Part shown: positions 724 through 10,661 of the stretch, one piece after another
Numbering within the stretch: position 1 is the stretch's first letter
Layout of the letters: each line of letters opens with the position of its first letter
Source of the DNA: a virus
Taxonomy: Duplodnaviria; Heunggongvirae; Uroviricota; Caudoviricetes
DNA length: 12,336 bases
IMG/VR virus record: IMGVR_UViG_3300031760_000008
Location: 1-12,336 of that record
Direction: 5' to 3' (one strand)
Notes under the pieces: model-generated
Told to the model about the DNA's origin: nothing
The model's database searches: none
What the model saw: the letters and a program-made list of their open reading frames with translations, nothing else
Position numbers and translations under genes: made by a program

Positions 724-2619
724 TTAATTAGAACTTCTATTTAAAAGTAATCTGATAGTAGTTTCGCTAGCTACATTAAGAGTATTAATATCATCTACTG
801 TTTCTCTATTTCTACATCTAGATATTCTAAGTAGATATAAATTCTTTTTAGGTCTAGTTAAAGCTACATATTGTAAATTTTTCTCTTGTTGTTGAGCATC
901 TTCTGTTTGAGAACTATATACATATGGAAATCTAGGATAATCATAAATATATACATTATCAGCTTCTCCACCTTTCATCATATGTATAGAAGATAAAATA
1001 GGTGCTTCTTTATTTATATTTCCTTTTAAGAAAGAATCTATATATACTTCTAAATCTTTTACAAGTATAGAACTACAATTTTCTTTATAATTATTAATCA
1101 AAGATTCTACTACATCATAATATTCAGCAAGAACATTATCTTGCATACCATCATATACAAAAGAATAATCTCCTTCTTCTTTATATTCTTTCATGCAATC
1201 TAATAAATAATCAACAGTATAATTAGATTTAGAAATAGGTTTCTTTAATGTCTTAGCATTTTTAACTAATCTTTTAAAAGTATTTTGCATATATTCCCTA
1301 TCAGATTTAGATATTTTCTCATCACTTTGTTTCCAATCGATATTTGCTTCTTCACATAATCTATATAACTCTTTTTCAACATTTAAACATTGATTATATC
1401 TTTTTATATATTCTTTAATAACTCTTTTAATTTCATTTACAATAGTTGTTACCATTTCAGTATTTTTAAATTTAACAGAAATCTTATCATCAAGTACTAA
1501 TTTTTTATATAATCTAACCAAATCATTATTTCTTCTTGCAAGAATTACATCATTTGCTTTAATATTTTTAGCTAAATCAATTTCATCTAAAAATTTAACT
1601 TCTCCTTTATCATCTCTTTTATGATTCCAATCAATTTCAGGTACTATATCTTGAGCTACCTTAATTACATTTTCAGGACATCTATAACAAATATTTAAAG
1701 GTAATTCATTTAAAGCAAAATTCTTTTTTAAATTTCTAATAGATTTAGTATCAGCTCCTGCAAAAGCGTAAATACTTTGTTTTTCATCTCCAACAGCTAT
1801 TAATCGAGTATCAAAATTAATAAGTAGTTTTAGAAATAATTGTTGTAATACTGATAAATCTTGAGTCTCATCAACAAGAACAAAATCTAAATATTGACGA
1901 GTAGCCCAAGGAACATTCATTTTATATAAACAAGGAAAATATATCATATCAGTATAACCAACTCTATAAATAGGTTTTCCAAAAGAATCTAGTTCAGGAT
2001 TTTCAAATTCATATTTAATTTTATCAATTGCTTCTTCTATAACTTCAGGAAATTTTCTTAATCCTAAATCATCCCAATTTTTCAAATTCCAACATAAACG
2101 AGGAGCTAGTTTATATATCTCATCATAATCATGATAATTAACATTATATAATCTAGAATAATTAACCATTTGAGATATTTCTCTTAATACATCTCCAAGT
2201 AAATCTTTAAAATCAGAATCAGATAATTCAGCATTAGCTATTCTGAATTCAGTATCACATTTTTGAGCAAATGAATTTTGTACCCATTCTTTAATCCTAT
2301 CATCATGCTGATCTACTTCAATTATATAATTCTCTCCATGTTTCTTATATAAATAAGATCTTAAAAAAGTTAATCCTAAACTATGTAGAGTTTTAATTTG
2401 TACATTATCAGAAATAATTCTAGTTTGTAACTCTTGTACAATTGATTTATTAAATGCTAAAAATAAACATTTTTTATCTTGAGCAATAATTTTATCAGCT
2501 ATTAAACATAATGTAGATGTTTTACCAGATCCAGCTTTTGCATCTACAAGTAAATTTCCATTATTACTATCTATATAATTCAAAATATTTTTTTGATAAT
2601 TACTTGGTTCAAATGACAT
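724..2619 (-). CDS. Superfamily 1 (UvrD/Rep/PcrA-like) ATP-dependent DNA helicase
   Basis: Walker A AKAGSGKTS, motif Ia LAFNKSI, motif II VDETQD, AVGDEKQSIYAFAGAD, LNICYRCP, SIHMMKGGE and YVALTRPKK. AAAGGAG RBS upstream. Confidence 0.93.
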   Translation of the reverse strand: MSFEPSNYQKNILNYIDSNNGNLLVDAKAGSGKTSTLCLIADKIIAQDKKCLFLAFNKSIVQELQTRIISDNVQIKTLHSLGLTFLRSYLYKKHGENYIIEVDQHDDRIKEWVQNSFAQKCDTEFRIANAELSDSDFKDLLGDVLREISQMVNYSRLYNVNYHDYDEIYKLAPRLCWNLKNWDDLGLRKFPEVIEEAIDKIKYEFENPELDSFGKPIYRVGYTDMIYFPCLYKMNVPWATRQYLDFVLVDETQDLSVLQQLFLKLLINFDTRLIAVGDEKQSIYAFAGADTKSIRNLKKNFALNELPLNICYRCPENVIKVAQDIVPEIDWNHKRDDKGEVKFLDEIDLAKNIKANDVILARRNNDLVRLYKKLVLDDKISVKFKNTEMVTTIVNEIKRVIKEYIKRYNQCLNVEKELYRLCEEANIDWKQSDEKISKSDREYMQNTFKRLVKNAKTLKKPISKSNYTVDYLLDCMKEYKEEGDYSFVYDGMQDNVLAEYYDVVESLINNYKENCSSILVKDLEVYIDSFLKGNINKEAPILSSIHMMKGGEADNVYIYDYPRFPYVYSSQTEDAQQQEKNLQYVALTRPKKNLYLLRISRCRNRETVDDINTLNVASETTIRLLLNRSSN

Positions 2620-2650
2620 AATATTTACAACTCCTTTATTTTATACTATT

Positions 2651-2660
2651 TATAACAACT
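2651..2660 (-). promoter_or_regulatory. Putative extended -10 promoter (AGTTGTTATAAAT) for the helicase
   Basis: TG-n-TATAAA about 30 nt upstream of the ATG. The same TGTTATA core recurs upstream of other genes. Confidence 0.5.
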
Positions 2661-2840
2661 CATATTATTAAATTTGCTATTACTATTATATTACAGTTTT
2701 GAAAAAATGGAACGAGATTTATTAAAATAAATTTAGGAAAATTTTTGGATCTGAGCAATCCATTGAAATAAAAAGCTTCGAATACGGTTTTTTAAGAATT
2801 TTTGGACAAATAGTCGGTATATTTATAAGGCAAAACTCTG

Positions 2841-2920
2841 TATACTCTATATAATGATATACTCTATATAATGATATAGTCATATAATGATATAGTCATA
2901 TACTTATATAATGATATCAC
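2841..2920. repeat. Tandem array of four ATATAATGATAT cores (iteron- or DUE-like)
   Basis: Exact 12-mer at 2849-2860, 2866-2877, 2882-2893 and 2906-2917, with ACTCT or AGTC linkers. Confidence 0.9.
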
Positions 2921-2932
2921 TCAATTCTCATT

Positions 2933-2991
2933 TCTGTTTCAGATTCAGATCTCTTTATCAAATTTCAGATTCAATTATCTGTTTCAGATCT
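2933..2991. repeat. Second short-repeat cluster built on TTCAGAT
   Basis: TCTGTTTCAGAT at 2933-2944 and 2978-2989. TTTCAGATTCA at 2937-2947 and 2963-2973. TTCAGAT occurs four times. Confidence 0.85.
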
Positions 2992-3006
2992 GTTCTGGAA
3001 ATGATT

Positions 3007-3613
3007 TTTGACAGATTTGTTAAACACCACCAGACAACCGATTTATAACACGGACAGCATCCACTTCGTGTGACGCTCGTGTTTTGGAAGCAGAAGTCAC
3101 CTTACCCTCCTCTCTAAAATCAATAAAAAATTGACGTTAGAGATGAGAGTAAAGTGCCCGAAAAAAATAGTGAGAACCTGGCTGGGGTGCTCACTAGAAC
3201 AATTTTCATAACGCGTGATTACGCGCTTCGTATAGCTTTCGGCCACATGCTAGATACTACTTCCTCACCAAGACTCGCTTATATGAGGGTCCTATAAAGA
3301 TTTTACAAGTAAGTCGGTTACTGTGATTATATATCTTACTTGTAGTAATTTGTATTTCGTTTCTAGTTACCTGCTATCATCTATTTACTTGATTCATACT
3401 GTGTTCAAATATATTGGAAATTACATTTGAACAACTGAGGTAATTAATATTTGCTTATGAACTTTCTATATATGCATCGCACGAGGACGGGATTAAATTT
3501 GTTCGCAGCTCGCGAGATGACTCTTTAACAGCCGACAAAACAGCACAACCGAACCGCGCCTGGTACTTGGAGATCGAACTTAGACAAGTTGAAATACCTT
3601 TCCATCGGTCAAA
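3007..3613 (-). ncRNA. Putative large (~610 nt) structured non-coding RNA, family not recognised
   Basis: No long ORF and raised GC (57/120 at 3481-3600 versus 8/60 in a sample coding line). Helices: 19/20-bp stem 3137-3156/3098-3117, 10-bp 3335-3344/3304-3313, 9-bp 3425-3433/3402-3410, 7-bp 3592-3598/3562-3568 and 7-bp 3221-3227/3210-3216. The termini pair (3613-3604 with 3016-3007, 9/10). G-U pairs work only on the minus strand. Confidence 0.7.
3161..3196 (-). terminator. Intrinsic terminator/attenuator-like hairpin inside the structured RNA
   Basis: Minus strand reads TAGTGAG-CACC-loop-GGTT-CTCACTA followed by T7. Confidence 0.55.
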
Positions 3614-3620
3614 TTCAATT

Positions 3621-3650
3621 ATTATTATTTATATAAAAATAGTATCGCAA
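3621..3650 (-). promoter_or_regulatory. Putative sigma-A-like promoter for the 610-nt RNA
   Basis: TTGCGA (3650-3645), a 17-18 nt spacer, then TAATAA/AATAAT (3627-3621). The predicted start near 3615 coincides with the 5' strand of the closing helix. Confidence 0.4.
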
Positions 3651-3688
3651 CTTCTATATAAACTTTAATAATATCTTTTATATCTCCC

Positions 3689-3948
3689 TTAACGTTGTGT
3701 TGCCAGTTATTTATTCAATCTAAATAGATTAAGTAGATTTCCTATCAACTACTCCTCAATATGCTTTCCCATATATCTTGATTATGCTGTATGAAATTAT
3801 ATTAATATTTCATTCCCTATAATCTTGTTTTGAATCAATTATAGTTTAAATAGAACTACTTTAAAAATATAGTTTATCTGATGTGTTATACAAACCGTTA
3901 CAAGAGTTCCTTTTTATAAATGTATACCTCAACTCTTTTGCACGTTAA
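3689..3948 (-). ncRNA. Compact ROOL-like structured RNA
   Basis: Closed by a 7-bp helix TTAACGT/ACGTTAA (3948-3942 with 3695-3689). Internal stems at 3931-3937/3902-3908 and 3807-3813/3791-3797. Segments GTTCTATTTAAACTA..AATTGATTCAAAAC and GAGGAGTAGTTGATAGGAAATCTACTTAATCTATTT..TTGAATAAATAACTG match my recollection of the 3' part of ROOL RNAs, which is unverified without cmsearch. Confidence 0.55.
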
Positions 3949-4164
3949 TTTTTTACTTTATAGATTTTATCCCAGGGCAAGGGACACCAGATTTCTGTGA
4001 TCAGCCTAAGAGGCATTTCCGTTACGAGTTATTCTAAAGGAGGGATTAGCTTAAATATCAAAACTTATTTATCTAATTTTCATATGACGCTCTAGAACCT
4101 ACTTTTAATGTTATATAAAACTATCTATATCTGGTCATAGATAGAATTTTAATTTACTAGATAT

Positions 4165-4233
4165 TTATAACATCTTTTTAAAGCAAATTAATAATCATGT
4201 GAAATTTTTATCACATGATTATTATAACATCTT
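4165..4233 (-). promoter_or_regulatory. Tandem extended -10 promoters flanking a perfect 14-bp inverted repeat
   Basis: Direct repeat TTATAACATCTT at 4165-4176 and 4222-4233 (minus strand AAGATGTTATAA[T/A], i.e. TGn-TATAAT). Inverted repeat TAATAATCATGTGA/TCACATGATTATTA at 4189-4202 and 4211-4224. Confidence 0.65.
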
Positions 4234-4239
4234 AATTTT

Positions 4240-5346
4240 TTAATTTTGATTAAATCTTTCAAATAGTCCCCCACGAATAATTTTATTATCTTCTCTAATT
4301 GGTAGAGATTTATCAAGATCTTCTATTTTTAAGTGATCTATAAGATGAGAAATTCTATCATATAAAGCTTCCACATCTAGAGTTTTAATTTCTAAATCTT
4401 CTAGAATAGAATAAATCTGAGGTCTATTATTATTTTCAAAAGGCATACAGTTACTATAAATAGTTGTTTTAATATTATTGATTACATCATCAGTAATATC
4501 ATCATCAATTAATTTTAAGTTTGTAAGTAATATATTAGTTAAAAATTGATCTTCATTAAAATTAAGATAAGCTTTTCTTTTAGGTACATCCATTTCTTTA
4601 CATACTTTATCTAATTCTTCTTCTGTTTTAGGAAAAGATCTTTCTTTATCTACTAAAGAACTAAATAACTTATATAAACCAGGAGCTGTTTTTTCTCCTA
4701 CTTGAAAACATGCAGAAGGAATATTATCTGAAGGATCTCCTACAATGCACTTACAACCTATATACTCATCTATATTCATATTCTTCTCTTTAAGAGTATT
4801 TATATCCCACATTTCTTCTTTCATGGGTCTTCTTACTTTACATCTTCTATTATCATCTTCAAATACAAGTTGTATTAAATCTTTATCATCTGAAACAACA
4901 ATACTATTTCTACTCATTTTAGAAAGAATACAAATTAAATCATCACCTTCCCAATCATTAATTCTAATTGTAGGTATTCCAAATAAAGGTAATAATTGCA
5001 TTAAATCATTTCTTTGAGTACTATATTCTCTTCTAAATTCTAAATCAAATAGTTGTTCTTCAGTTAAATCTTCATCTTTACATTCAAGTAAAGCTTGTCT
5101 TTCAATATTCTTTTTATAATTAGGATATATTTCTAATCTTCTTTTAGATAATCCTCCATCAAATATTACAACTGGATAGAAATTCCAATCCTTAGATTCT
5201 TTAATAATAGACCTAAGTACTCCATATATTCCACCTGTTCTTTTACCTTTAGAGTTTATCATTTCCCATTGATTAGGTTGACTAAGATTTCTATGTAATA
5301 AATACGATCCATCAAATATTAGAACTCTATTAAAGTTAATATCCAT
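4240..5346 (-). CDS. 5'-3' exonuclease / flap endonuclease (Pol I 5'-nuclease, T4 RNase H and T5 D15 family)
   Basis: LIFDGSYLLHR, VIFDGG, RRLEIYPNYKKN, WEGDDLI, VVSDDKDLIQL, and the H3TH motif GDPSDNIP..VGEKTA. AGGAGG RBS. Confidence 0.93.
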   Translation of the reverse strand: MDINFNRVLIFDGSYLLHRNLSQPNQWEMINSKGKRTGGIYGVLRSIIKESKDWNFYPVVIFDGGLSKRRLEIYPNYKKNIERQALLECKDEDLTEEQLFDLEFRREYSTQRNDLMQLLPLFGIPTIRINDWEGDDLICILSKMSRNSIVVSDDKDLIQLVFEDDNRRCKVRRPMKEEMWDINTLKEKNMNIDEYIGCKCIVGDPSDNIPSACFQVGEKTAPGLYKLFSSLVDKERSFPKTEEELDKVCKEMDVPKRKAYLNFNEDQFLTNILLTNLKLIDDDITDDVINNIKTTIYSNCMPFENNNRPQIYSILEDLEIKTLDVEALYDRISHLIDHLKIEDLDKSLPIREDNKIIRGGLFERFNQN

Positions 5347-8795: not shown

Positions 8796-10661
8796 TTATA
8801 CTAAATCTTCTCCTTCTATATTTGTCAAATCTACTTGAGGAGCTAATTCAGGTTCTTCTGTTTCTTCAGTAGAAGCTGGAGCTTCTTCATTATCTAAATC
8901 AATGTCAAAATCAAATTTTGTTGAAGGACCTCCTCCAGCAGATAATTCATGTTCATCATCTGGTTCTGATGCATTTCCTTCAATAGGATTTCCTGCATCA
9001 TCAGTTTCAGTTTCTAATTCTTTTAAATGCTCATTAATAATATCTACTATATCTTGTTGATTTAGATATTTACTTAACCATTCTAAGATCATATCAAGTT
9101 TAACTTCTTCATCAACATTTTCTAATCCATTCATCAATGATAAAATATCATTAACATTTCTGATTTTAGTTTGTAATAATTCATCACGTCTATTATCCTC
9201 TACTGTAATAATTGGAGTTAATTTAACATCAAAATTATTTACAACTTTCTTTCCTAGACCATCACCTAATGCAAATATATTAATAAGATTTTTTAAAGCA
9301 GATGTTAAAGCTACTTGACCTCTTTTAATACGTCTAGCATAAGTAGTGTTCATTTCTGTTAAAGATCCTCCATTAGAAAGACCAGAACCATCCATATCAG
9401 CACCTAACATAGCTTTAGGTATTAATAAAGATCCATATACTTTGTTTTCAGAATCTTCAACATCTCCAAGATTTCCAATATCTACATCTCCACCTATATT
9501 AACAGTTGATATAGTACCTTTTCCATCTTTAGTTGTAGTATAAATAATATTTTCAATAGGTTGAGCTCCAGCTCTACTTTGTATAGTTCCAGCTTCTTTA
9601 TTAAGAATAATTTGTTGTTCAATCTGCTGTTTAATTTCTTGAAGTTTTCTTCTTTTTTGAGCTTCAGGCATATCACCTAATTCAACTTGAATTACTCTTG
9701 TTATAGAAGATTTTGTTATTCTTTCAAGTAAAACTGATTCTTCTTTTAATTTTAATGTTTGATAAGCTCCATATACATTTTCTAATACTGATTGACCTGT
9801 TTTAACTTGAAAAGATAAAGCAGCGCCTGCTCCTTCATAAGCAGATCCATCTATTGTTCCATCATCTAAAGTTTTATCAACTTCTGTTTCTTTTATTAAT
9901 TGGAATTTTTCAGGAAATCTATTTATATTAGGAGATAAACAAATATGTATAAATTTTGTTGGATTTAATATATTTATATCTGTTACAGATCCTGAATATA
10001 AATATGTATTATTTTCTAATGTATTTTCCATATCATCATGTGATCTTATGAATCCAGCTGTTTTACCTCTATATTGTAAATCATAAACTTCAGCTGAATT
10101 AGGAACTTTTTCTATATATCTTTCTAGTTTAGCTCCTTTAATTGTTTTTTGAGTTCTTACATGAGGATCATGTTTTGTTGGTTCTAATATTAAAGATGGT
10201 TTAGTATCATTAACTGATGTATTTTCAAATGTTTCTAGATATACATCTCCATATAACCACATACAATAAGCCCATGACCAAATATTTTGTTCAACATTTA
10301 AATCATCTAAAAGTTTATTACCATAAGCAGCTACATCAGAATCTTCTGATTCTACCCAAACAATTTTACCATCTGAGTTATATTGAACTGTATCATTAGC
10401 ATACATTTCTACAGCAGCACCAATTCTACCATCTGCTACCATTTCTTCAAATACTTTATATTTAGTATTACGATCACCTTTTAGAGTAGTAATTTTAGTT
10501 AAATCACTAAGATCAATTCTTTTTCCAGATTCTGTAGCTGTTTCCATCTGATTAGGAAGTGAATGTCTTTCATCAGTAAATTCAGTTACATCTTCAGGAG
10601 CTTGTTTAGGTATTACTCTTACTCTAAAGATTCCTTCTCTTAATCTATCAAATACACCCAT
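8796..10661 (-). CDS. Portal protein, T4 gp20-like, with an acidic C-terminal tail
   Basis: FEEMVADGRIGAAVEMYANDTV, WSWAYCMWLYGDVYLE, SVLENVYGAYQTLKLKEESVLLERITKS..RVIQVELGDMP and KVYGSLLIPKAML parallel the gp20-family blocks (RRMA.HPEVD.AI, FRRWYVDG, SYLHKAIKP.NQL.MLEDA...R.RAP.RRVFYIDVGNLP, KLY.SL.VP). Confidence 0.85.
   Translation of the reverse strand: MGVFDRLREGIFRVRVIPKQAPEDVTEFTDERHSLPNQMETATESGKRIDLSDLTKITTLKGDRNTKYKVFEEMVADGRIGAAVEMYANDTVQYNSDGKIVWVESEDSDVAAYGNKLLDDLNVEQNIWSWAYCMWLYGDVYLETFENTSVNDTKPSLILEPTKHDPHVRTQKTIKGAKLERYIEKVPNSAEVYDLQYRGKTAGFIRSHDDMENTLENNTYLYSGSVTDINILNPTKFIHICLSPNINRFPEKFQLIKETEVDKTLDDGTIDGSAYEGAGAALSFQVKTGQSVLENVYGAYQTLKLKEESVLLERITKSSITRVIQVELGDMPEAQKRRKLQEIKQQIEQQIILNKEAGTIQSRAGAQPIENIIYTTTKDGKGTISTVNIGGDVDIGNLGDVEDSENKVYGSLLIPKAMLGADMDGSGLSNGGSLTEMNTTYARRIKRGQVALTSALKNLINIFALGDGLGKKVVNNFDVKLTPIITVEDNRRDELLQTKIRNVNDILSLMNGLENVDEEVKLDMILEWLSKYLNQQDIVDIINEHLKELETETDDAGNPIEGNASEPDDEHELSAGGGPSTKFDFDIDLDNEEAPASTEETEEPELAPQVDLTNIEGEDLV

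What the first reader, a model, noticed from the sequence alone, without database searches (positions are those of the whole stretch)
3007..3613. Unassigned ~610-nt, GC-enriched, highly structured RNA in a phage genome
Seen: a stretch with no long ORF whose 5' part has much higher GC than the coding lines (57/120 at 3481-3600). It contains many helices, including 19/20-bp, 10-bp, 9-bp and several 7-bp stems. Long-range pairs are nested: 3613-3604 with 3016-3007, 3490-3486 with 3062-3058, and 3485-3480 with 3081-3076. A promoter-like site sits just upstream. Several stems need G-U pairs that exist only on the minus strand, the pattern expected when selection acts on an RNA rather than on DNA palindromes. 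I could not match it to tmRNA, RNase P, group I/II introns or riboswitches. Inference: a new large 'ornate' phage ncRNA comparable in size to ROOL, GOLLD and OLE.
Basis: partly seen in the sequence, partly recalled or inferred. Interest (0 to 1): 0.9.

Follow-up and report, generated by a model that had tools for sequence, protein, structure and literature searches.

The report
New 1.1-kb structured phage RNA
The flagged stretch is the 3' half of a conserved, folded, non-coding RNA of about 1.1 kb in rumen jumbo phages; it matches no catalogued RNA family and sits where sister phages carry a gene for a DNA-binding, replication-initiator-like protein.

Summary
The core idea holds, but several details do not. 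Window 3007-3613 is ORF-free and GC-enriched, and it folds better than shuffles on the minus strand. It is only part of a larger unit, about 4105-3031 on the minus strand (~1.08 kb). I found this unit in three diverged phage lineages (62-73% nucleotide identity).

On their alignment, RNAalifold gives 151 pairs, 38 of them with compensatory double changes. Column-shuffled alignments give 9.1±3.6. The consensus energy is -55.1 on the sense strand, -30.7 on the antisense strand and -17.8±4.2 for the null.

The 3' domain (3330-3025) is stable in all three lineages (z -4.2 to -6.9). A covarying hairpin and a long-range pseudoknot close it. No Rfam family matches at any threshold. Contigs from two rumen metatranscriptome studies fall preferentially inside the unit.

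His "promoter" is the conserved loop of a covarying hairpin inside the RNA.

Nine sister lineages fill the same slot with a 495-613-aa tandem winged-helix, Rep-like ORF and lack the RNA. This suggests, but does not show, a role in replication initiation. The scan had already noted this RNA in a near-identical genome (e1-1731675).

The parts
3031..4105 (-). Whole conserved non-coding unit, the candidate ~1.08-kb structured RNA. The 5' end is inferred from the first covarying helix, the 3' end from the pseudoknot strand.
   Evidence: Homologous over its whole length in L021 (95% identity), L022 (62%) and L035 (66%). 151 consensus pairs, 38 compensatory, against a null of 9.1±3.6. Alifold energy -55.1 vs null -17.8±4.2. 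No coding signal.
3007..3613 (-). The finding as given: the 3' 55% of the unit plus about 24 non-conserved bases at its 3' side.
3025..3330 (-). 3' domain, the most stable part. It contains helices 3288-3283/3268-3263, 3233-3215/3064-3048, 3180-3169/3101-3091 and the long hairpin 3159-3093.
   Evidence: Single-sequence z is -6.9 (window), -4.2 (L022) and -5.3 (L035). Alifold z is -4.6, with 16 compensatory pairs vs 6.4±3.4 (1 of 200 shuffles). Helix table.
3304..3344 (-). Hairpin 3344-3335/3313-3304. Its 21-nt loop carries the invariant CAGUAACCGA.
   Evidence: Compensatory changes at five of ten pairs across lineages. 100% complementary in the window (I22).
3031..3041 (-). 3' strand of a long-range pseudoknot that pairs with hairpin-loop bases 3323-3314.
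   Evidence: 10 bp kept in all five sequences, with a C-G to G-C swap at 3323/3031 and U-G to U-A at 3320/3035.
3370..3483 (-). Helix 3483-3468/3384-3370, enclosing a variable AT-rich insert.
   Evidence: 11 bp, 6 with compensatory changes.
3630..3660 (-). Hairpin with conserved loop UGCGAUACU.
   Evidence: 11 bp, 6 compensatory. z is -3.8 (window) and -3.3 (L022). The promoter scan match is only 9/12.
3700..3795 (-). Most conserved block, over 90% identical across lineages, with three small helices.
   Evidence: The covariance model R1 built on it finds a single copy in the genome. RNA-run contigs cover it.
4027..4103 (-). 5' helix 4103-4088/4040-4027.
   Evidence: 13 bp, 4 compensatory. The 5' part 4111-3618 as a whole gives alifold z -8.0, with 17 compensatory pairs vs 5.8±2.8 (0 of 200 shuffles).
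4164..4232 (-). Two conserved AGATGTTATAA(T/A) motifs (extended -10, TGnTATAAT type) at 4232-4221 and 4175-4163. These are candidate promoters of the RNA.
   Evidence: Conserved in all three lineages although the surrounding sequence is not. The same motif occurs twice directly upstream of the helicase gene in L020. Only 3 copies of AGATGTTATAA occur on this strand of the genome. Function is inferred.
2840..2995 (.). Iteron-like tandem repeats (units of 8/16/17 nt and 26 nt) between the RNA's 3' end and the helicase promoter.
   Evidence: Copy number varies between strains. Each RNA-type lineage has its own repeat motif at this place.
4240..5346 (-). Upstream gene: 5'-3' exonuclease / T4 RNase H-type flap nuclease.
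   Evidence: PF02739 at 1e-21, phrog_107.
724..2619 (-). Downstream gene: SF1 UvrD-like DNA helicase.
   Evidence: PF00580 at 6e-29, phrog_1967 at 3e-85.

Best explanation
Window 4105-3031 (minus strand) is the gene of a previously uncatalogued, highly structured non-coding RNA of about 1.08 kb. The flagged 3007-3613 is its 3' half.

It is probably transcribed in the same direction as the neighbouring genes from its own TGnTATAAT-type promoters at about 4229-4164 (inferred). It folds into a 5' region with several covarying helices, a nearly invariant central block, and a compact 3' domain closed by a hairpin plus a long-range pseudoknot.

It occupies the slot between the RNase H-type exonuclease gene and the SF1 helicase gene in the replication module. 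Sister phages fill that slot with a fast-evolving tandem winged-helix, Rep-like DNA-binding protein. The two occupants are mutually exclusive.

My best guess at function is a role in initiating phage DNA replication that replaces or bypasses that protein. For example, it could be an origin transcript or pre-primer running into the adjacent iteron-like repeats and processed by the neighbouring RNase H, as at ColE1 and T4 oriF.

My odds: the structured RNA is real, about 0.85; it is a single 1.1-kb unit, about 0.55; it has a replication-initiation role, about 0.3.
For: Shown:
- Homologs exist in three diverged lineages, plus close variants.
- 38 of 151 consensus pairs have compensatory changes, against 9.1±3.6 (max 21) in 100 column-shuffled alignments. 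With partners slid by 1-3 columns the count is 2-10.
- Consensus energy is -55.1 sense, -30.7 antisense and -17.8±4.2 for the null.
- Both the 5' part and the 3' domain are significant on their own.
- The 3' domain is thermodynamically stable in all lineages.
- A pseudoknot and a covarying hairpin close the 3' domain.
- There is no ORF and no triplet pattern. Only 5 of 40 and 5 of 35 indels are multiples of three.
- In strain variants, 3020-3800 carries 1 substitution against 33 in the flanking ~1.3 kb.
- In two metatranscriptome runs from different studies, 4 of the 5 real contig matches in the 12.3-kb window lie in the unit.

For the replication idea (inferred):
- The element sits between an RNase H-type nuclease gene and a helicase gene.
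- It is mutually exclusive with the slot ORF.
- The slot ORF looks initiator-like: RepA_N 1.9e-5 in one member, HTH_36, a tandem winged-helix fold, and language-model neighbours that are all initiators.
- Lineage-specific iteron-like repeats lie just downstream.
- T4 oriF is a precedent: an R-loop processed by phage RNase H (PMC3016281).
Against: - There are only three independent lineages, so no per-pair statistics of the R-scape kind are possible. The structure was predicted on the same alignment that was scored; the shuffled-alignment null only partly controls for this.
- The middle third (3617-3331) is weakly supported (z -2.3; 18 of 200 shuffles reach its compensatory count).
- Regions 4111-3331 do not fold better than shuffles as single sequences.
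- In the 3' domain, sense and antisense energies are nearly equal.
- RNA evidence consists of low-depth contigs without strand information, and DNA carry-over cannot be excluded.
- No terminator was found, so read-through into the helicase mRNA is possible.
- The helix joining the two halves (4006-3995/3543-3530) shows no covariation and has two mismatches in L022.
- The replication role rests on context only. GC skew is uninformative, and the identification of the slot ORF as an initiator is itself only moderate.
Confidence: 0.6

Rival explanations
1. A self-contained 'ornate' RNA of the ROOL/GOLLD type. It would be a stable trans-acting RNA, perhaps self-assembling, whose function has nothing to do with replication. 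Its position in the slot would reflect only cassette exchange at a recombination hot spot.
For: Its size, its many junctions and its phage and rumen origin resemble ROOL and GOLLD (PMC5737381; 10.1101/2024.12.08.627333). The long invariant single-stranded blocks could be tertiary or intermolecular contacts. The slot is clearly hypervariable: its ORFs are only 14-30% identical between phages whose helicases are 60-85% identical.
Against: There is no match to the ROOL or GOLLD models, even at E<=10. The phage's tRNA genes lie 40 kb away, unlike the usual ROOL/GOLLD context. The strict either/or relation with one protein family in a replication module suggests a functional link.
Confidence: 0.22
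2. A long structured 5' leader that regulates the helicase operon in cis, rather than an independent RNA gene.
For: It is on the same strand as the helicase gene, and no intrinsic terminator lies between 3031 and the helicase start. One RNA-run contig extends past the 3' pseudoknot strand to 2989.
Against: The helicase keeps its own conserved TGTTATAAA -10 and RBS region at 2660-2620, which is also present in ORF-type phages that lack the RNA. A 1.4-kb leader would be unprecedented. ORF-type phages express the same helicase without it.
Confidence: 0.1
3. A DNA-level element with no functional RNA, such as a replication origin or protein-binding array. In this view the conserved blocks and hairpins act as DNA.
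For: The element lies in the replication module next to iteron-like repeats. The antisense alignment also beats the null (z about -3). In the 3' domain the two strands score alike.
Against: There is strand asymmetry overall: -55.1 vs -30.7, 151 vs 90 pairs and 38 vs 17 compensatory pairs. About 20 G-U pairs in the window's consensus helices would be A-C mismatches in the other strand. A long-range pseudoknot and helices spanning 100-280 nt are not DNA cruciform features. Contigs from RNA libraries fall in the element.
Confidence: 0.06
4. A decayed remnant of the slot ORF, or of a mobile element or intron.
For: The ORF-free island (1.6 kb) is about as long as the slot ORF plus its spacer.
Against: tblastn finds no similarity to any slot ORF. 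nhmmer finds no similarity to ORF-type loci. There is strong purifying selection and covariation. No group I or group II intron models match, and both flanking genes are intact.
Confidence: 0.02

Closest known systems
GOLLD RNA (Rfam RF01998)
   Same: A very large (about 800 nt), multi-domain, covariation-supported non-coding RNA carried by phages and prophages, with function unknown.
   Different: No sequence or structure match. The present RNA is longer (about 1.08 kb), is not near tRNA genes, and sits in the replication module as the alternative to a protein gene. Multimerisation was not tested.
ROOL RNA (Rfam RF03087)
   Same: It originates from rumen samples, is linked to phages, is large (mean 581 nt) and has many junctions and pseudoknots (PMC5737381).
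   Different: No hit to the ROOL model at E<=10 in the window or in its homologs. It is about twice the length and has a different genomic context. The 'mini-ROOL' reading of 3689-3948 (e1-5386302) is not supported; that stretch is the conserved centre of this RNA.
ColE1 RNA II pre-primer, and the T4 oriF/oriG origin transcripts
   Same: In those systems a promoter-driven transcript initiates replication and is processed by RNase H (PMC3016281; ColE1 from textbook knowledge). Here the RNA is transcribed towards an iteron-like, AT-rich region, and a T4-type RNase H gene lies next to it.
   Different: This is an analogy of mechanism only, with no homology. R-loop formation, processing and origin activity were not tested. 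ColE1 RNA II is about 550 nt and is controlled by an antisense RNA I. T4 origin transcripts need no elaborate fold.
Iteron-binding winged-helix Rep initiators (Pfam RepA_N PF06970, HTH_36 PF13730)
   Same: This is the likely identity of the protein that fills the same slot in sister phages.
   Different: It is a protein, not an RNA. It shares no sequence with the island. Its assignment as an initiator is only moderately supported.

Membership tests
ROOL (RF03087) | Scores against the Rfam covariance model at or above its gathering score. | tested here: not met
   No hit at gathering score, nor at E<=10 on 2500-4400, nor at E<=1 on L021/L022/L035.
ROOL / GOLLD | Typical context: close to tRNA genes in a phage or prophage. 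| tested here: not met
   It is in a phage, but the 7 tRNA genes lie at 42.6-48.4 kb, about 40 kb away.
GOLLD (RF01998) | Scores against the Rfam covariance model. | tested here: not met
ROOL / GOLLD / OLE ('ornate' RNAs) | Forms RNA-only homo-oligomers. | not testable with these tools
   This needs in vitro transcription followed by mass photometry or cryo-EM.
Group I / group II introns, tmRNA, RNase P, OLE, HEARO and the other Rfam 15 families | Covariance-model match. For introns, also interrupted exons. | tested here: not met
   No family reaches its threshold. The best weak hits are miRNA and snoRNA models on single hairpins. ARAGORN finds no tmRNA. Both flanking genes are intact.
Structured non-coding RNA (generic) | Conserved secondary structure supported by compensatory changes beyond a shuffled-alignment null. 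| tested here: met
   38 compensatory pairs vs 9.1±3.6. Energy -55.1 vs -17.8±4.2, with 0 of 100 shuffles reaching it. Domain-wise results.
Structured non-coding RNA (generic) | Transcribed, with defined strand and ends. | tested here: inconclusive
   Contigs from two metatranscriptome runs lie at 3702-3852, 3862-4012, 2989-3144 and 3807-4019. Only one other real match falls in the remaining 11 kb of the window. Contigs carry no strand or end information, and depth is low.
RNA-primed origin (ColE1 RNA II / T4 oriF type) | The transcript forms a persistent R-loop at an unwinding element and is cut by RNase H to prime DNA synthesis. | not testable with these tools
   Only context is available: an adjacent RNase H-type gene and downstream AT-rich repeats. 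GC skew is uninformative because all genes lie on one strand.

The most novel reading that the evidence does not exclude
An RNA-only replication-initiation module. In this reading, some rumen jumbo phages have replaced a winged-helix, Rep-type origin-binding protein with a 1.1-kb folded RNA that performs or bypasses the initiator's job. The RNA would form a structured pre-primer or R-loop at lineage-specific iterons and be processed by the adjacent RNase H. This would be a natural protein-to-RNA swap in a core replication function.
Probability: 0.22. Interest if true: 0.92.

Novelty: new variant of a known kind. Interest (0 to 1): 0.78.

Why it matters
Large, intricately folded bacterial and phage RNAs are very rare. 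According to PMC5737381, only rRNAs, group II introns, GOLLD, ROOL and OLE are of comparable size and complexity. Each such RNA has turned out to do, or is suspected of doing, unusual biochemistry.

At about 1.08 kb, this RNA would be longer than GOLLD. Unlike ROOL and GOLLD, it comes with a concrete functional clue: it is the either/or alternative to a Rep-like DNA-binding protein inside a replication module. This turns 'what do ornate phage RNAs do?' into a testable question about replication initiation. It also gives a natural pair of phage types, RNA-type and protein-type, for comparison.

Tried and rejected
- **Alternative genetic codes or frameshifting to open an ORF.** Rejected. Every frame has 36-53 stops of all three kinds, indels are not in threes and substitutions show no periodicity.
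- **blastn against GenBank phages.** No match.
- **blastn against relatives with 55%-identical helicases.** Only AT-rich noise.
- **A recurring promoter motif around 3687-3609.** Only low-complexity matches.
- **Pattern scans of IMG/VR, JGI metagenomes and GTDB genomes with four conserved blocks.** These returned only the two near-identical contigs, plus chance hits (L033, L037-L039, L054, L056) that nhmmer rejects.
- **The genome search 'relatives'.** Not available for virus records.
- **mafft-qinsi structural alignment.** Not installed.
- **Island as a pseudogene of the slot ORF.** No tblastn signal.
- **GC-skew mapping of an origin.** Uninformative.
- **First AF2 model of the slot ORF from 7 sequences.** pLDDT 53, unusable. 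The 39-sequence model was used instead.
- **PDB sequence-profile search for the slot ORF.** Nothing found.
- **The count of structure pairs.** Not used, because it would have needed a typed structure string of more than 340 characters. Equivalent counts and controls were computed in Python.

Full report
**Setting.** The window is the first 12.3 kb of a 140.8-kb IMG/VR phage contig. The genome has about 27% GC. In the 178.8-kb near-identical relative G003, every long ORF lies on one strand. The window encodes a T4-type portal, a thymidine kinase, a 5'-3' exonuclease of the T4 RNase H type (4240-5346) and an SF1 UvrD-like helicase (724-2619). Sequencing runs that hold the region are bovine and sheep gut (rumen) metagenomes from 13 studies. 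The finding lies inside a 1.6-kb gene-free gap, 2620-4240.

**Checking the observation.** No frame is open under any stop reassignment. GC at 3481-3600 is 57/120 as stated. GC-rich blocks lie at 3000-3300, 3450-3600 and 3950-4050.

The minus strand of 3007-3613 folds at -165.7 kcal/mol, against -142.1±4.9 for shuffles (z -4.8). The plus strand gives z -2.5. Dissecting the region shows that nearly all of this comes from 3330-3025 (z -6.9). Region 3608-3331 gives z +0.5.

- 3490-3486/3062-3058 is not complementary.
- 3485-3480/3081-3076 forms only in this lineage.
- The end-closing helix has its 3' arm rewritten in a strain variant with no compensation.

Rfam 15 gives nothing at gathering score, and only stray miRNA and snoRNA hits on single hairpins at E<=10. 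ARAGORN finds nothing.

**Finding homologs.** DNA searches of GenBank phages, IMG/VR, JGI metagenomes and GTDB genomes gave only two near-identical contigs or chance hits.

I therefore searched with the helicase protein and fetched the contigs of relatives at 56-95% identity. The slot between the exonuclease and helicase genes holds one of two things:
- In nine lineages (L020, L023/L025/L026, L027, L028, L029, L036, L040, L004/L005) it holds a 495-613-aa ORF followed by a 0.5-0.7-kb spacer.
- In three lineages it holds an ORF-free island of about 1.6 kb. These are the window clade (L006/L007 at 97.5%, and L021), L022 with the partial L034, and L035.

The helicases of the three island lineages are only 68-70% identical to each other. 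The window's nearest relative outside its clade (85%) is of the ORF type.

The islands are homologous from window ~4110 to ~3025. Element identity is 95% (L021), 62% (L022) and 66% (L035). Nearly invariant blocks alternate with variable, indel-rich stretches. Indels are mostly not multiples of three (5/40 and 5/35), and substitutions show no triplet periodicity.

**Conserved structure.** RNAalifold on the six-row alignment A1 predicts 151 pairs, 37-38 of them with compensatory double changes.

Controls:
- Shuffling the 3' partners among sequences gives 21±2.7 compensatory pairs (0 of 500 reach 38).
- Sliding the partners by 1-3 columns gives 2-10.
- Re-predicting on 100 column-shuffled alignments gives 9.1±3.6 (max 21), with energy -17.8±4.2 against the observed -55.1.
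- The reverse complement gives -30.7, 90 pairs and 17 compensatory pairs.

By domain:

| Region | Alifold z | Compensatory pairs, observed vs null | Shuffles reaching observed count |
|---|---|---|---|
| 4111-3618 | -8.0 | 17 vs 5.8±2.8 | 0/200 |
| 3617-3331 | -2.3 | 10 vs 5.7±2.8 | 18/200 |
| 3330-3025 | -4.6 | 16 vs 6.4±3.4 | 1/200 |

The best-supported helices, in window coordinates:

| Helix | Compensatory pairs |
|---|---|
| 4103-4088/4040-4027 | 4 |
| 3937-3932/3907-3902 | 2 |
| 3844-3837/3824-3817 | 2 |
| 3660-3650/3640-3630 | 6 |
| 3483-3468/3384-3370 | 6 |
| 3288-3283/3268-3263 | 3 |
| 3233-3215/3064-3048 | 2, plus 3 one-sided |
| long hairpin 3152-3102 | 8 |

The 10-bp hairpin 3344-3335/3313-3304 covaries at five positions. 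Its loop, CAGUAACCGA (3323-3314), pairs with 3041-3031 in every sequence, with a C-G to G-C swap. This forms a long-range pseudoknot that closes the 3' domain.

Upstream, all lineages share one or two AGATGTTATAA(T/A) motifs (extended -10). In the window these are at 4232-4221 and 4175-4163. The same motif precedes the helicase gene in L020. I take these as the likely promoters; this is an inference.

**Other evidence.** In a strain variant (X9), 33 differences fall in the ~1.3 kb flanking 3020-3800 and only one falls inside it.

In two metatranscriptome runs from different studies, the real contig matches in the 12.3-kb window are:
- X19: 3702-3852, 3862-4012 and 9223-9402.
- X25: 2989-3144 and 3807-4019.

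So 4 of 5 lie in a unit that covers 9% of the window. This suggests an abundant RNA. However, contigs give no strand or ends, and DNA carry-over is possible.

A covariance model of the central block (R1) finds one copy in this genome. It finds none in the complete ORF-type genome G001. nhmmer finds no trace of the RNA in any ORF-type locus.

**The alternative occupant of the slot.** The slot ORF family is small: 51 representatives among 1.8 billion protein clusters. It has no PHROG and no consistent Pfam match.

One member hits RepA_N at 1.9e-5 and another hits HTH_36 at 5e-3. Its language-model neighbours are all replication initiators (DnaA_N/HTH_36, Rep O, RepL), with scores of 0.85-0.89, which is a lead only. 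A 39-sequence AF2 model (pLDDT 77.5) matches tandem winged-helix DNA-binding folds, with weak hits to plasmid Rep proteins.

I rate 'origin-binding initiator' at about 0.6. The RNA-type genomes G000 (69% complete) and G003 (87% complete) contain no homolog of this ORF.

**Interpretation.** The structured RNA is well supported, at about 0.85 in my estimate. Whether it is one 1.1-kb molecule or two is open. The only helix joining the halves (4006-3995/3543-3530) is conserved but shows no covariation.

Three things point to a role in replication initiation: the position in the replication module, the either/or relation with a Rep-like protein, and the lineage-specific iteron-like repeats just downstream (2995-2840). 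Mechanistic precedents are ColE1 RNA II and the T4 oriF R-loop that is processed by phage RNase H (PMC3016281). This part is inference, at about 0.3.

A ROOL/GOLLD-like autonomous 'ornate' RNA is the main rival. Membership of those families was tested and not met, and the tRNA context is absent.

The scan had already noted this RNA in a near-identical genome (e1-1731675). My conclusions were reached on independently fetched homologs and my own statistics.

Noticed in passing
window 2840-2995: Tandem repeat arrays: TATACTCTATATAATGA x2, an 8/16-nt ATATAATGATATAGTC series, and 26-nt TTTCAGATTCAGATCT units. Copy number differs between strains: a 33-nt deletion in L006/L007, and a 26-nt deletion plus a 25-nt insertion in run X9. 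L022 and L035 have different repeat motifs at the same place.
   Followed up: partly
L004:5995-8901; proteins P0002, P0027-P0041, P0052, P0058: In several relatives the helicase is 809-988 aa because of an inserted intein (PF14890), in some cases together with a LAGLIDADG endonuclease (PF03161). The window's helicase (631 aa) has no intein.
   Followed up: no
L020:2856-4469 and homologs (alignment A5): A small, fast-evolving family of 495-613-aa proteins with tandem winged-helix domains fills the slot in ORF-type phages. It is probably a Rep-like initiator. It has only 51 representatives in 1.8 billion protein clusters and no Pfam or PHROG family.
   Followed up: partly
window 4189-4224: A perfect 14-bp hairpin lies just after the exonuclease stop codon and is terminator-like. 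It overlaps the first TGTTATAAT motif.
   Followed up: no
window 4117-4139: The hairpin TATCTA(N9-10)TAGATA is conserved in all three lineages. It lies between the candidate promoters and the first covarying helix. Its role is unknown; it could be an operator or the 5' stem of the RNA.
   Followed up: no
window 3161-3167: The length of an A/T homopolymer run varies between strains: one base shorter in L006/L007, X9, X16, X20 and X26.
   Followed up: no
window 4030, 3900 and 3322 (minus strand): The motif GUAAC(G/C)G recurs three times, each time directly after the 3' strand of a helix. It may be a repeated tertiary or protein-binding motif.
   Followed up: no
G003, whole record (L045-L053): Every long ORF in 178 kb lies on one strand, and GC skew is uniformly negative. 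This is unusual even for T4-like phages.
   Followed up: partly
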